Shown: positions 9,591-13,155 of the stretch, piece by piece
Numbering within the stretch: the first letter of the stretch is position 1
How the letters are laid out: every line of letters starts with the position of its first letter
Source: Candidatus Heimdallarchaeota archaeon
Lineage (GTDB): Archaea > Asgardarchaeota > Heimdallarchaeia > Heimdallarchaeales > Heimdallarchaeaceae
DNA: 16,109 nucleotides
NCBI GenBank assembly: GCA_030668875.1
Contig: DAOVER010000058.1
Span: 1 to 16,109, forward strand
Reading direction: 5' to 3'
The notes under the pieces: model-generated
Databases searched by the model: none
What the model saw: the letters and a program-made list of their open reading frames with translations, nothing else
Told to the model about the DNA's origin: nothing
Position numbers and translations under genes: made by a program

Positions 9591-9672
9591 TGGTTGAAGA
9601 AGAAAATTTTCTAGTAATAAAGGAAATTTTGAAATAAACAAAGATTAAATAAATCACAAGCGTCAGTATTAT

Positions 9673-9948
9673 TTGAAGTTAGGTGTCAACTGGTTGTATC
9701 AGAAGTATGTTCAATCTTTCATTGATAGCTGCAAGAAAGATAATTCGTTTGTTGTAATGCTAAAATGGGACACAATGGAAGAAGCTCATGAAAAGATAAA
9801 ACAAAAATGCATACTTATTCAATCTGTTGGTAATCTAATTGAGAAATATCAATTTGGTAAAACGCTCCTTTCATACTACAAGACAGGGAAAATTATGCTC
9901 ACTGAAGTAGACCACATTGAAACTGTGCTAGAAAAATTATTCGATTAG
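9673..9948 (+). CDS. Small hypothetical protein resembling the C-terminal extension domain of ThiF/MoeB-like proteins
   Basis: Pattern 'SCKKDNSFVV ... LLSYYKTGKIML ... IETVLEKLF' resembles that small alpha/beta domain; 9 bp upstream of the iscS-like gene. The start may instead be TTG at 9694, behind an AGGTG RBS. Confidence 0.55.
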   Translation: MKLGVNWLYQKYVQSFIDSCKKDNSFVVMLKWDTMEEAHEKIKQKCILIQSVGNLIEKYQFGKTLLSYYKTGKIMLTEVDHIETVLEKLFD

Positions 9949-9957
9949 GTAAAAAAT

Positions 9958-11169
9958 ATGTCAGAAATAGAGAAGTTGCTTGACCAGCATGGAAAAGCAA
10001 TAACTGAAGTCTACCTTGATTGGGAAAATGGGTCAAAAATAGAAAGAGAAGTATTAGACGCAATGATACCTTTTTATCTAGATAGGAAATTTGGCAATCC
10101 TGCAATAACTCACCGTTTTGGGTGGGAAACCTATGATTTCTATATAGGAGCAAAAAAAACAATTGCAAAACCTCTCAATATTAATCCTCAATCACTTGCT
10201 ATTACTCAAAGTTTTACAGAATCAAACAATCTTGCAATACAGGGAATTGTTCGGGCAAATAAGAAAAAGAAAAAAATCATTCTCTCAGAAGTAGAACATC
10301 TTAGTGTTATTCATGCAGCTAAATCTCTTTATGATATAGGTGTAGAAGTAGAGGTTATACCTGTCTCAAATGATGGAGTAGTTAATACAGACATTCTTCA
10401 AGAGAAACTAGATGATGAAACATTACTAACAAGTATACAAACTGTCAACCACGAAATTGGAACTATTCAACCAGTTAAGGAAGCCTTTGAAATTGTTAAA
10501 GATAAAAATGAAGACATCATATTTCATACAGATGCTACATCTGCATTTGGAAGATTACCTTTAGATTATAGCAAATTAGAAGTAGATCTAGCAACTATAA
10601 GTAGTGATAGGATTCTTGGGCCAAAAGGAATTGCAGGTTTATATGTAAAAGAAGGAATTAAGATAAGACCTCTCTATGAAGGTCAATTGAGTGTAGAAAT
10701 TCTATCACCTGATGTGGAAAATTCCCCACTATTAGCAGGTTTTGCTAAAGCAGTAGAATTACAATTTGAAAAGTTTGATGAGATAAATGCAGAGACTTCT
10801 AGACTTAGAGATAAATTATTATATGGTTTTCAAACAACAATTCCTCGGACAGATATCAATGGTCCTCAAGGAAACAACAGAGTATCTGATAATGTAAATA
10901 TAAGCTTCCTTGGATGTGAAGGAGAAGCTCTAACAGTAGAAAGTAGCATGAACGGAATTTATGCTTCAAGTGGAAGTGCTTGTACAAGTAGAGTATTAAT
11001 GCCAAGTCATATCCTCACAGCAATTGGAAGGAAACCAGAAGAAGCTCATGGAAGCTTATTGATGAAGCTAACACGCTTAAATACCGAAGAGGAAATTGAA
11101 TATGTCCTTGAAACAATGCCAAAGGTAATCGAAAGAATAAGGTCGATTACAGGCGGAATATCATTATAA
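9958..11169 (+). CDS. iscS: IscS/NifS-like cysteine desulfurase homolog, probably catalytically inactive (PLP Lys replaced by Arg)
   Basis: Class-V PLP fold motifs 'FGNP', 'TESNNLAI', 'EHLSV', 'NHEIGTIQP', 'HTDA', 'GPKG', 'SSGSAC(342)TS', 'PSHIL'. The canonical SGHK/SSHK reads SSDR (R218, codon AGG at 10609-10611). Confidence 0.9.
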   Translation: MSEIEKLLDQHGKAITEVYLDWENGSKIEREVLDAMIPFYLDRKFGNPAITHRFGWETYDFYIGAKKTIAKPLNINPQSLAITQSFTESNNLAIQGIVRANKKKKKIILSEVEHLSVIHAAKSLYDIGVEVEVIPVSNDGVVNTDILQEKLDDETLLTSIQTVNHEIGTIQPVKEAFEIVKDKNEDIIFHTDATSAFGRLPLDYSKLEVDLATISSDRILGPKGIAGLYVKEGIKIRPLYEGQLSVEILSPDVENSPLLAGFAKAVELQFEKFDEINAETSRLRDKLLYGFQTTIPRTDINGPQGNNRVSDNVNISFLGCEGEALTVESSMNGIYASSGSACTSRVLMPSHILTAIGRKPEEAHGSLLMKLTRLNTEEEIEYVLETMPKVIERIRSITGGISL

Positions 11170-11181
11170 GGAAGAGAAAAA

Positions 11182-11679
11182 ATGTCAAGCAGAATACCTC
11201 TACCATACGCTCCTCGGGTATTAGAATTATTCCAAAACCCAAAAAATCTAGGAAGAATGGAAGATGCAACAATTGTTGCATCAGCTGGAAGTCCAGCATG
11301 CGGAGATATGATCGCGTTTTATCTTAAAATTAATGATAATGATACAATCACAAAATCAAGTTTTGAATCATATGGTTGTGCGTCCAACATAGCAGCTGCA
11401 AGTCAACTGACAATTATGATAGAGAATAAAACATTGGAGGAAGCTTGGAATTTCACTTGGAACGATGTCTCTGAGGCTTTAGGGGGACTTCCAAGTGTAA
11501 AAACTCACTGTGGGAGTTTAGCAGTAGGAGCTTTGAGAAGAGCAATTAGACAATATTATAAAGAAGTTGCAAAAACCTCACCTGAGTGGCTTCCAGGGGT
11601 TCTAACAAAAGATGAAAAACACGCTTTAGAAGAAGAAGCTTTAGCTGAAAAGCTTGGTAAAAAATACAAATTAATCTAA
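11182..11679 (+). CDS. iscU: IscU/NifU-type Fe-S scaffold with C-terminal extension
   Basis: 'NPKNLG', 'AC(40)GD(42)', 'GC(66)A', 'LPSVKTH(109)C(110)': all cluster ligands present; 12 bp downstream of iscS-like. Confidence 0.95.
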   Translation: MSSRIPLPYAPRVLELFQNPKNLGRMEDATIVASAGSPACGDMIAFYLKINDNDTITKSSFESYGCASNIAAASQLTIMIENKTLEEAWNFTWNDVSEALGGLPSVKTHCGSLAVGALRRAIRQYYKEVAKTSPEWLPGVLTKDEKHALEEEALAEKLGKKYKLI

Positions 11680-11817: not shown

Positions 11818-12024
11818 ATGAGTAAAGTATGGTCGATCTTACAAGCTATTTTTGGACTTTTGTTAGTATGGGTTTTACTAGATTATGCAGTTAGTGCAAC
11901 ATCTTTATGGGTTTCTGAATTTCTAGCAGACCTTGGTGGTTTCTTAGGACCACTAGCAATAGTAGCTTACTTAGCTGCTTTAATATTCATATTTGAATTT
12001 GTTAAAGGTTTAACAGCAGAGTAG
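11818..12024 (+). CDS. Small two-TM membrane protein of unknown function
   Basis: 68 aa, two hydrophobic stretches, own promoter/RBS and downstream T-tract. Confidence 0.7.
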   Translation: MSKVWSILQAIFGLLLVWVLLDYAVSATSLWVSEFLADLGGFLGPLAIVAYLAALIFIFEFVKGLTAE

Positions 12025-12077: not shown

Positions 12078-13034
12078 CTATCCAGTTGCAAAAGATAGAA
12101 GAACAGATCCTCCAACAATTATCGCTACACCTATCACTTGAGGCATTTTGATTTTCTCTTTAAGAAATAAGTATCCAAATAACAAAACAAAGAATGGTGA
12201 AATCGAAGAAAGAGGTGTGCTTATAGCTGTATCAATCCACATATTTCCAATAACAGTGAAAAAAGACACTCCACCTATACACCATGAAACCACCCCTCCA
12301 CCCATTAAAATGCCTAATTCTTTAAAGTGAATATTTTTAAGCATTTTAAGACCTCTATTCTTAATCAATGATGAAATTAATGCGAAAACAAGAGCCACTA
12401 CAACCATTATACCATTTCGAACACCCATCATTGGTATAACTTCTACATCTGTTCCCTCTAACAATCTTCTAGTGAAAAATATTGTACCTCCCCAGAAAAC
12501 TGCGGCAATTAGAGCTAAGATTATCCCTAAGATAAACGATTTCTGGTTCTCAGTTTCACTTGATTCTACTTTAGTTTCTTTTTCCATTTCATTATTGTTT
12601 CTTGAAAAAAAGGTAATTGTCGCTACACCAATTGCAATAAGAATTGCCCCCACTATGATCTCCCAACTTATCACTTCTGTTCCTGTAATTACAAGAAGTA
12701 AAATTGTAACAAAAGGATAAATTGTAGTAATCGGTTGAGAAATGGAAACATCAATCTTTTTCAGAGAAAACAAAGAAAAGAAGTCACCAAGAGCAATAAA
12801 AATAGCTGATAAAATTAACCATAGAAGATTTTCCCCAAGAAATGGTTGAGCTAAAGAACTTGGCGTATAGAAGATAAGTCCAATTATTAGTAATATTGGA
12901 ACAGCTAATAATCCTTTTACATACGTCGCGGTTAAAGGATCGGTGTTTTTCACTCCAACTTTGAATATTACCATGCCTGTACCCCAGGCAAGAGCTGCAG
13001 TAAAAGACAAAATGATTCCTAACGCAACTGACAT
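12078..13034 (-). CDS. DMT/EamA-family transporter
   Basis: About 10 TM, two EamA repeats: 'ALAWGTGMVIFK', 'SLKKIDVSISQPITTIYP', 'AVFWGGTIFFTR', 'PLSSISPFFVLLFGYLFLKEKI'. ATG at 13034 preferred. Confidence 0.9.
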   Translation of the reverse strand: MSVALGIILSFTAALAWGTGMVIFKVGVKNTDPLTATYVKGLLAVPILLIIGLIFYTPSSLAQPFLGENLLWLILSAIFIALGDFFSLFSLKKIDVSISQPITTIYPFVTILLLVITGTEVISWEIIVGAILIAIGVATITFFSRNNNEMEKETKVESSETENQKSFILGIILALIAAVFWGGTIFFTRRLLEGTDVEVIPMMGVRNGIMVVVALVFALISSLIKNRGLKMLKNIHFKELGILMGGGVVSWCIGGVSFFTVIGNMWIDTAISTPLSSISPFFVLLFGYLFLKEKIKMPQVIGVAIIVGGSVLLSFATG

Positions 13035-13155
13035 CAACTTCGGCTTATTGCGTGAGTAAAAAAAGTTTGTTACAAATACAAAATATGTACTAGTTTGTTA
13101 TCAATCAGAACAATAGTTTTTTAATTAGTTCTTCAACTTACAATTGGTTATAATA

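What the first reader, a model, noticed from the sequence alone, without database searches (positions are those of the whole stretch)
9958..11169. IscS pseudo-enzyme: PLP site dismantled, mobile cysteine kept
Seen versus the canonical IscS motifs: SGHK becomes SSDR (Schiff-base Lys to R218, His to D217); DAVQ becomes DATS; TSGAT becomes TQSFT; RSGT becomes SPDV; the substrate-carboxylate Arg 26 residues after the catalytic Cys becomes L368; YLDxxATT becomes YLDWENGS. SGSAC(342) and the IscU-docking C-terminal region are intact. Known: Archaeoglobus fulgidus IscS has Asp at this Lys, lacks desulfurase activity and donates its Cys as a ligand to the [2Fe-2S] cluster on IscU. Inference: this is a further-degenerated member that may not bind PLP at all and acts as a cluster-stabilising chaperone, implying sulfur comes from sulfide or another donor. 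AAG to AGG is a single base change, but the other substitutions argue against a sequencing error.
Basis: partly seen in the sequence, partly recalled or inferred. Interest (0 to 1): 0.8.

Follow-up and report, generated by a model that had tools for sequence, protein, structure and literature searches.

The report
Lysine-less IscS look-alike with new partner
This Heimdall (Asgard) archaeon's only IscS-type "cysteine desulfurase" has lost the lysine and other residues needed to hold its cofactor and cut cysteine. It is nevertheless strongly conserved in a fixed three-gene unit with the scaffold IscU and an undescribed 84-residue cysteine protein, which suggests it helps build iron-sulfur clusters without making the sulfur itself.

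Summary
ORF 9958-11169 is an IscS/NifS-fold protein with R218 for the Schiff-base Lys, D217 for His, L368 for the substrate Arg and SPDV for RSGT. Cys342 is kept. It is not an error: codon 218 is AGG, with a synonymous AGA in a co-occurring strain, and dN/dS is about 0.08.

- The protein does not descend from the A. fulgidus type (AU test p = 3e-5). It belongs to a separate Bathyarchaeia/Asgard clade whose pocket is remodelled with new conserved residues (N24, H165, Q243, V253, L368, K370).
- That clade ancestrally keeps the Lys. Within Heimdallarchaeaceae position 218 flips among R, K, H and S at least 8 times, and the phosphate-cup positions are among the most variable, so the Lys is dispensable there.
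- H114 and D192 stay invariant, so non-covalent cofactor binding is not excluded.

New here: an 84-aa protein of no known family (9694-9948, invariant Cys) is adjacent in nine of ten sampled loci. It co-occurs with this IscS genome by genome (25 of 28 family genomes, none of 52 others).

The genome has one canonical IscU, one SufC-SufB pair and an unlinked, apparently intact SufS-like enzyme. Bathyarchaeial operons carry a true SufS.

The scan had noted the Bathyarchaeial form on other DNA.

The parts
9694..9948 (+). Gene for an 84-aa protein of no known family (TTG start). It has an invariant Cys13 and a Y-x-T-G-K motif, and its stop lies 9 bp before iscS*.
   Evidence: Homology to the Bathyarchaeial 89-aa ORF extends upstream of the ATG at 9757 (E 3e-9). 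The family has 624 members and no Pfam or NCBIfam match. The AF2 model has pLDDT 95 and only weak TBP-like or ThiF-C-terminal-like fold matches. It is single copy in the genome. dN/dS is 0.07.
9958..11169 (+). iscS*: a 403-aa IscS/NifS-fold pseudo-desulfurase.
   Evidence: (NifS model 350 bits against a cut-off of 531).
10609..10611 (+). Codon AGG = R218, at the position of the PLP Schiff-base Lys (E. coli K206).
   Evidence: A strain variant carries AGA, also Arg. Heimdall orthologues have R in 22, K in 9, H in 2 and S in 1.
10981..10983 (+). Codon for C342, the mobile-loop Cys (E. coli C328). It is invariant in all 119 clade members.
   Evidence: The loop 341-346 is the only low-confidence segment of the model, as expected for a flexible loop.
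11059..11067 (+). Codons L368-M369-K370. L368 replaces the substrate-carboxylate Arg (R354). K370 is a clade-wide new Lys two residues further along the strand.
   Evidence: L368 in 119 of 119; K370 in 118 of 119.
11182..11679 (+). iscU: a 165-aa scaffold with C40, D42, C66, H109 and C110, plus a conserved ~40-residue C-terminal extension (PxWLP...EEKxALEEE).
   Evidence: It is the only IscU in the genome. dN/dS is 0.05.
11818..12024 (+). 68-aa hydrophobic ORF downstream of iscU. A 72-73-aa ORF is called at the same place in three orthologous loci. Whether it belongs to the unit is uncertain.

Best explanation
iscS* encodes a non-catalytic IscS homologue that acts as the partner of IscU in Fe-S cluster assembly.

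Shown:
- It cannot make the internal aldimine and lacks the cysteine-binding Arg.
- It keeps the flexible-loop Cys342.
- It is co-transcribed in a fixed unit with a canonical IscU and an 84-aa Cys-bearing protein, and all three are under strong purifying selection.
- It is the only type I homologue and this is the only IscU in the genome.

Inferred:
- As in A. fulgidus (IscS-IscU)2, the dimer docks two IscU molecules. Cys342 swings onto the IscU site as a fourth cluster ligand, as a persulfide shuttle, or both.
- Sulfur is supplied in trans. One possible source is the conserved unlinked SufS-like enzyme (P0279), whose equivalent lies inside the Bathyarchaeial operons. The other is environmental sulfide.
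- The small protein, with its invariant Cys, is a dedicated accessory factor (sulfur, iron or electron hand-over, or complex stabilisation).
- The remodelled pocket (N24, H114, H165, D192, K370) still binds some ligand or serves a structural or regulatory role.
For: Motif losses are shown. The protein falls below every NCBIfam desulfurase cut-off. Its closest structure is the inactive A. fulgidus IscS (PMC8918507).

Purifying selection: dN/dS is 0.076-0.105 for iscS*, 0.047 for iscU and 0.066 for the small gene. A strain variant shows 18 synonymous against 12 non-synonymous codons.

Relaxed constraint falls exactly on the Schiff-base and phosphate positions. Sites 86, 215, 217, 218 and 250 lie at the 77th-90th percentile of variability, and residue 218 changes at least 8 times. 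C342, H114, D192, L368, N24 and P251 are invariant.

The IscU ligands are intact.

Synteny of small gene, iscS* and iscU holds in 9 of 10 sampled loci from Heimdall, Baldr, 'Asgardarchaeia' and Bathyarchaeia.

Genome-level co-occurrence in Heimdallarchaeia: both genes are present in 25 of 28 genomes of the family (counting the window's own), and the same 3 incomplete genomes lack both. Neither is found in 52 genomes of other families.

A true SufS (574 bits against a cut-off of 475) lies in the Bathyarchaeial operon. The SufS-like P0279 keeps its His-Lys, Cys loop and Arg, and is found in 24 of the 27 other family genomes (25 of 28 with the window's own).

An SMS pair is present. SMS is reported to use sulfide (PMC12192291).
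Against: No biochemical data exist for any member of this clade. Cofactor content, IscU binding, and the roles of Cys342 and the small protein are all inferred.

H114 and D192 are invariant, 9 of 34 orthologues keep Lys, and all Bathyarchaeial members keep Lys and the phosphate Ser. The clade may therefore still bind PLP or PMP and do chemistry.

The SufS-like P0279 scores below the SufS cut-off (379 against 475 bits) and is not linked to the operon here.

One clade member (locus L016) has neither IscU nor the small gene adjacent.
Confidence: 0.6

Rival explanations
1. The protein is still an enzyme. The remodelled pocket holds PLP or PMP (or another ligand) non-covalently, or uses the new Lys370. 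It would act on a substrate other than free cysteine, for example a protein- or carrier-bound thiol or persulfide.
For: The pocket replacements are conserved and not random (N24, H165, Q243, V253, K370 at 90% or more in 119 sequences). H114 and D192 are invariant. A. fulgidus IscS binds PMP without a Lys (PMC8918507). Bathyarchaeial members keep K206 in 80 of 80 and S203 in 80 of 80.
Against: In the Heimdall clade the phosphate-cup positions (S215, S85/F86, D217, V253) are variable or replaced, and residue 218 toggles freely. No type I desulfurase works without the aldimine Lys. Bathyarchaeial members also lack the stacking and catalytic His (Pro in 78 of 80) and sit beside a real SufS.
Confidence: 0.17
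2. The eroded pocket has become a metal site (His, Asp, Glu, Lys) and the protein delivers iron to IscU. Its role would be frataxin-like or iron-chaperone-like and not sulfur-related.
For: The conserved or new polar residues lining the former pocket are E23, N24, H114, H165, D192, D252, E254 and K370. No frataxin, IscX or IscA gene accompanies the operon.
Against: This is purely compositional. E254 and H114 are also conserved in ordinary desulfurases.
Confidence: 0.08
3. The unit serves a sulfur-relay purpose other than general Fe-S assembly, such as tRNA thiolation or molybdopterin synthesis. General Fe-S biogenesis would then be done by SufC-SufB.
For: An SMS pair is present and could suffice (PMC12192291). 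The small protein's fold weakly resembles the C-terminal domain of ThiF/MoeB proteins (TM 0.62-0.66).
Against: The tight operon with a fully canonical IscU points to cluster assembly. No ThiI, MnmA or MoaD genes are adjacent.
Confidence: 0.1
4. The Lys-to-Arg change is a sequencing or assembly error or a very recent pseudogenisation (AAG to AGG).
For: The change needs only a single base.
Against: Independent contigs of four runs read AGG, and a strain variant reads AGA, also Arg. 22 of 34 orthologues from other samples have Arg. The frame is intact and dN/dS is about 0.08.
Confidence: 0.01

Closest known systems
Archaeoglobus fulgidus IscS (IscS2; PDB 4HVK, 4EB5/4EB7 with IscU, 4R5F D199K)
   Same: It has the type I desulfurase fold. 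The Schiff-base Lys is replaced, the substrate Arg is replaced by Leu, and the Gln at O3' is lost. The loop Cys is kept and IscU is adjacent. It is the best sequence and fold match. It is reported inactive, with its Cys ligating the [2Fe-2S] cluster on IscU (PMC8918507, PMC13066941).
   Different: It belongs to a different clade, and one clade holding both is rejected (p 2.8e-5). A. fulgidus keeps SGAT, RSGS and Asn155 and binds PMP. This protein has TQSFT, SPDV and H165, a new K370, an N-terminal extension and a dedicated 84-aa partner gene. By earlier notes of this scan, A. fulgidus-type genes sit with TusA and DsrE. Here TusA and DsrE homologues are elsewhere in the genome.
Methanosarcina acetivorans IscS1 (Lys-less paralogue noted in PMC7585200)
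   Same: It is a Lys-less IscS next to an IscU in an anaerobic archaeon, and it is proposed to act like A. fulgidus IscS.
   Different: M. acetivorans also has active IscS2 and IscS3. This genome has no other type I homologue. IscS1 is uncharacterised (inclusion bodies).
MIS (minimal ISC system, MisS-MisU) of archaea
   Same: A desulfurase-fold gene and an IscU-type scaffold occur without chaperones or carriers (PMC12192291, PMC13066941).
   Different: MIS is described as having an active cysteine desulfurase. Here that component lacks the catalytic residues, and a third conserved gene is part of the unit. In Bathyarchaeia a fourth gene, SufS, is also present.
Bathyarchaeia-type iscS*-iscU-sufS-orf89 operons
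   Same: They belong to the same protein clade and carry the same pocket signature (ENxS, D/S for Gln, V for Thr243, L for Arg354, K370), the same IscU with a C-terminal extension, and the same small-protein family.
   Different: Bathyarchaeial members keep the Lys (80 of 80), have Pro for the stacking His, and carry SufS in the operon. Heimdall members lose the Lys, keep the His, place the small gene first, and have the SufS-like gene unlinked.

Membership tests
Type I cysteine desulfurase (IscS/NifS, EC 2.8.1.7) | Fold-type I / class V aminotransferase fold, dimer-type architecture | tested here: met
   Pfam PF00266 matches at E 3e-48. The AF2 model has pLDDT 91 and TM 0.86-0.90 to IscS and NFS1 structures.
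Type I cysteine desulfurase (IscS/NifS, EC 2.8.1.7) | Schiff-base Lys in the S-x-H-K motif | tested here: not met
   The motif reads SSDR, with R218 at the K206 position. Lys is present in 116 of 116 canonical representatives.
Type I cysteine desulfurase (IscS/NifS, EC 2.8.1.7) | Substrate alpha-carboxylate Arg (E. coli R354) | tested here: not met
   The residue is L368. Arg is present in 116 of 116 canonical representatives.
Type I cysteine desulfurase (IscS/NifS, EC 2.8.1.7) | Nucleophilic Cys on a flexible loop (SSGSAC) | tested here: met
   C342 sits in SSGSACTS. The loop has low pLDDT.
Type I cysteine desulfurase (IscS/NifS, EC 2.8.1.7) | Score above the curated NCBIfam equivalog cut-offs | tested here: not met
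   The NifS model scores 350 against a cut-off of 530.75. The IscS models score 283 against 548 and 280 against 643.
Type I cysteine desulfurase (IscS/NifS, EC 2.8.1.7) | [quoted passage not shown] | not testable with these tools
   This needs purified protein.
A. fulgidus-type inactive IscS | Lys and substrate Arg lost, loop Cys kept, IscU adjacent | tested here: met
A. fulgidus-type inactive IscS | Common descent with A. fulgidus IscS (same clade) | tested here: not met
   The tree places the A. fulgidus-like representative P0137 outside the Bathyarchaeia + Asgard clade. The AU test rejects one clade (p 2.8e-5). The A. fulgidus sequence itself was not in the tree; its 50%-cluster-level look-alike was used.
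A. fulgidus-type inactive IscS | Cys donated as ligand to the [2Fe-2S] cluster on IscU; PMP or PLP bound non-covalently | not testable with these tools
   This needs a structure and spectroscopy.
Bathyarchaeia/Asgard remodelled-pocket IscS-like clade (unnamed) | Signature N24, H165, Q243, V253, L368, K370 and an N-terminal extension with L7 and H11 | tested here: met
   All are present in the window protein and at least 90% conserved in 119 members. The clade has SH-aLRT 99 and is set apart by a drop from 413 to 312 bits.
Bathyarchaeia/Asgard remodelled-pocket IscS-like clade (unnamed) | Adjacent IscU with C-terminal extension and an adjacent 84-92-aa Cys protein | tested here: met
MIS (MisS-MisU) | An active cysteine desulfurase plus an IscU-type scaffold as a self-contained pair | tested here: not met
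   The scaffold is present. The desulfurase component lacks Lys and Arg, and a third gene is conserved in the unit.

The most novel reading that the evidence does not exclude
The small Cys protein, the pseudo-IscS and IscU (with a type II SufS in trans or in cis) form an undescribed Fe-S assembly machine of Bathyarchaeia and Asgard archaea. In it the dead desulfurase has been converted into a persulfide-relay and cluster-ligand subunit. Its former PLP pocket has been rebuilt for a new ligand, and the 84-aa protein is a new kind of dedicated accessory factor. In Heimdallarchaeaceae this conversion has gone as far as making the Schiff-base Lys dispensable.
Probability: 0.3. Interest if true: 0.8.

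Novelty: new variant of a known kind. Interest (0 to 1): 0.6.

Why it matters
How anaerobic archaea obtain sulfur for Fe-S clusters is an open question. The MIS system is described as the least studied biogenesis system (PMC13066941), and the role of the inactive A. fulgidus IscS is unresolved (PMC8918507).

This locus shows a second, independent lineage of non-catalytic IscS. It is widespread in Bathyarchaeia and several Asgard lineages, has a rebuilt rather than merely decayed pocket, and has an obligate small partner of no known family.

In Heimdallarchaeaceae it is the only type I homologue and pairs with the only IscU. The K/R/H/S toggling at the catalytic position is a natural mutagenesis experiment showing that the Lys is not needed. 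This gives concrete proteins to express and assay: three from the operon plus one SufS-like enzyme.

Tried and rejected
- Complex prediction of IscS* + IscU with the small protein as partner gave no verdict (score 0.00; controls not run). It is not evidence either way.
- The small protein has no Pfam hit at E up to 10. Its NCBIfam hits at that threshold are chance-level (E 0.004-0.015) and its protein-atlas feature hits are below 0.9. Foldseek against the PDB gave nothing at E 0.001 or better. The VIA-wide best Z of 7.0 (TBP, CYTH, RNase H3 N-terminal domain) is in the range of common arrangements. No family was assigned.
- No RNA sequencing run that holds the stretch was listed, so expression could not be examined.
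- Garcia et al. 2022 (the MIS/SMS paper) is not held in the library. Its statements were taken second-hand from PMC12192291 and PMC13066941.
- Literature searches found no description of the remodelled Bathyarchaeia/Asgard clade or of the small protein. This is absence from that library only.
- Model coordinates are not exposed. Spatial clustering of the new pocket residues, and whether K370 can reach the cofactor site, could therefore not be checked.
- TusA and DsrE homologues exist in the genome but are not near the operon. The TusA-DsrE-IscS arrangement seen elsewhere in the scan does not apply here.
- Sequencing error and pseudogene were rejected.

Full report
**What is there**

The window comes from a 3.2-Mb, 92%-complete genome of a Heimdallarchaeaceae archaeon. 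Names come from the sources of the nearest proteins. The DNA is held by marine-sediment metagenome runs.

ORF 9958-11169 (+) encodes a 403-aa protein with a full-length class V aminotransferase domain. It scores far below every curated desulfurase cut-off: 350 bits against 531 for NifS, and 283 against 548 for IscS. Its nearest solved relative is the catalytically inactive IscS of Archaeoglobus fulgidus, by sequence (E 1e-84) and by fold (TM 0.87-0.95, 38-40% identity).

Twelve bases downstream lies iscU (11182-11679). Nine bases upstream ends a small gene.

I took E. coli IscS from NC_000913 and aligned it.
- K206 to R218, H205 to D217, Q183 to S195.
- TSGAT to TQSFT, RSGT to SPDV (T243 to V253).
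- R354 to L368.
- YLDYSATT to YLDWENGS.

C342 is kept in SSGSACTS. In addition, N155 becomes H165. H104 (H114), D180 (D192) and T76 (T87) are retained.

It is not an error. The codon is AGG. Independently built contigs of four runs agree, and a co-occurring strain carries the synonymous AGA. Those runs may be the assembly's own source. However, orthologues from other samples and studies also have Arg.

Selection is strongly purifying. dN/dS is 0.076-0.105 against three orthologues, compared with 0.047 for iscU and 0.066 for the small gene.

**Where it belongs**

A search of 5.8 billion proteins found about 36 orthologues at 61-94% identity, all from Heimdallarchaeota sources. Identity then steps down to 48-54% for a very large set from Bathyarchaeia, Baldrarchaeia, 'Asgardarchaeia' and Nitrososphaerota sources.

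In the 50%-representative library this whole set collapses to a few clusters. It is separated by a gap (413 to 312 bits) from all other type I desulfurases.

A maximum-likelihood tree gives the combined clade SH-aLRT 99 on a long stem (0.38). The Heimdall subclade gets 100 on a still longer stem (0.58). The A. fulgidus-like representative (SSND motif) lies elsewhere, and forcing it together with the Heimdall clade is rejected (delta lnL 133, AU p 2.8e-5). The Lys loss here is therefore independent of the A. fulgidus case.

**The pocket is rebuilt, then partly decays**

Across 119 clade members the following are at least 90% conserved and essentially absent from 116 canonical representatives:
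- N24 (for Ala11), H165 (for Asn155), Q243 (for Gly233).
- V253 (for Thr243), L368 (for Arg354), K370 (for Ser356).
- An N-terminal extension with L7 and H11.

This is a new conserved constellation, not random erosion.

Bathyarchaeial members keep K206 (80 of 80) and the phosphate Ser203 (80 of 80), but have Pro for the stacking His104 (78 of 80) and Tyr for His205.

Heimdall members keep His114 and Asp192 invariantly. Their Schiff-base and phosphate half is under relaxed constraint. Position 218 is R in 22, K in 9, H in 2 and S in 1, with at least 8 changes on the tree. Positions 86, 215, 217, 218 and 250 lie at the 77th-90th percentile of variability within the clade.

But the pattern of free K/R/H/S exchange in an otherwise tightly conserved protein that uniformly lacks the substrate Arg argues that the Lys has no catalytic role in this subclade. 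Whether a B6 vitamer still binds non-covalently, as PMP does in A. fulgidus IscS (PMC8918507), remains open.

**A conserved partner gene**

The ORF upstream is a real gene of 84 codons (9694-9948, TTG start). Similarity to an 89-aa Bathyarchaeial ORF extends upstream of the first ATG (E 3e-9).

The family has at least 624 members of 84-92 aa, with no Pfam or NCBIfam model and only 'hypothetical' names. It has an invariant Cys13 and a Y-x-T-G-K motif.

Its AF2 model is confident (pLDDT 95; topology beta-beta-alpha-beta4-alpha). It has only weak fold neighbours: TBP, the RNase H3 N-domain, and the C-terminal domains of ThiF/MoeB-family models. It is single copy in this genome.

It is adjacent to the IscS* gene in nine of ten loci sampled:
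- Upstream in five Heimdall loci and one 'Asgardarchaeia' locus.
- After iscU in Baldrarchaeia.
- After sufS in two Bathyarchaeia loci.
 The exception is locus L016.

In 80 Heimdallarchaeia genomes, counting the window's own, both genes occur in 25 of the 28 genomes of the window's family. The same three incomplete genomes lack both. Neither gene occurs in 52 genomes of six other families, which have only 30-42%-identical type I homologues. Where coordinates are listed, the two genes abut.

**Rest of the Fe-S and sulfur inventory**
- The IscU here is the only one in the genome. It has all ligands (C40, D42, C66, H109, C110) and a clade-conserved C-terminal extension.
- The genome has one SufC-SufB pair, an SMS-type system. 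SMS was shown to use sulfide (PMC12192291).
- No second type I desulfurase exists.
- There is a type II SufS-like protein on another contig. It keeps the His-Lys, the R-S-G-x-x-C loop and the C-terminal Arg. It is found in 24 of the 27 other family genomes at 70-95% identity (25 of 28 with the window's own).
- In Bathyarchaeia a bona fide SufS (574 bits against a cut-off of 475) sits inside the operon.
- TusA and DsrE homologues exist but are unlinked.

**Most likely mechanism (about 0.6)**

IscS* is a non-catalytic subunit that docks IscU and uses its mobile Cys342 as a cluster ligand, a persulfide shuttle, or both. Sulfur comes in trans from the SufS-like enzyme or from sulfide. The small Cys protein is a dedicated accessory.

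Shown: the residue losses, the conservation, the synteny, the co-occurrence and the gene inventory. Inferred: the complex, the role of Cys342, the sulfur route and the role of the small protein.

The rivals are a still-active enzyme with altered chemistry (0.17), a non-Fe-S sulfur relay (0.10) and an iron-binding role for the pocket (0.08). Error or pseudogene is excluded.

**Comparison with the known**

The concept of an inactive IscS paired with IscU is established for A. fulgidus and suggested for M. acetivorans IscS1 (PMC8918507, PMC7585200). This protein works like those but is not of their lineage.

It fits the two-gene MIS outline, except that the 'desulfurase' is not one and a third gene is obligatory. 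I found no description of this clade or of the small protein in the searchable literature.

Earlier first-reader notes of this scan had spotted the Bathyarchaeial iscS*-iscU-sufS-orf operons on other DNA. Follow-ups had described the separate TusA-DsrE-IscS(K-less)-IscU type. The present case links the Heimdall Lys-less form to the former.

Noticed in passing
G000 contig C34:87915-89012 (locus L002 1459-2685, minus strand): A second pseudo-desulfurase candidate: a 408-aa SufS-like protein (208 bits to the SufS model). It reads S-S-S-T-N-G where S-x-H-K should be, but keeps an R-S-G-A-L-C loop.
   Followed up: partly
window 11182-11679 (residues ~128-165 of IscU): The IscU of this module carries a ~40-residue C-terminal extension (PxWLP...EEKxALEEExLA). 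It is conserved from Heimdall to Bathyarchaeia, Methanomethylicia, Brockarchaeota and Thermoprotei sources. Its role is unknown.
   Followed up: partly
window 11818-12024: A 68-aa hydrophobic ORF lies downstream of iscU. A 72-73-aa ORF is called at the same position in orthologous loci L010, L013 and L014. The one translated (L010) is also hydrophobic and may be a small membrane protein.
   Followed up: partly
L017 4001-7231 (Bathyarchaeia): A four-gene operon: iscS* (Lys kept, stacking His replaced by Pro), iscU, a true sufS and an 89-aa homologue of the small protein, with overlapping or abutting genes. The Baldrarchaeia locus L019 instead has a multi-4Fe-4S ferredoxin-type gene after the small gene.
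   Followed up: partly
L013 5443-7212 (94%-identical relative of the window): In the closest relative the EamA transporter gene that follows the operon is split into 114-aa and 79-aa pieces next to an IS605 OrfB/TnpB gene. In the window (12078-13037) it is intact.
   Followed up: no
window 9640-9655: An A/T-rich AAAGATTAAATAAATC element lies about 40-55 bp upstream of the TTG start of the small gene. It may be an archaeal TATA box for the three-gene unit.
   Followed up: no
L001 180-1103 (G000 contig C12, upstream of the SufS-like gene): A 307-aa Cys-rich ORF of unknown family lies immediately upstream of the conserved SufS-like gene. It was not examined.
   Followed up: no
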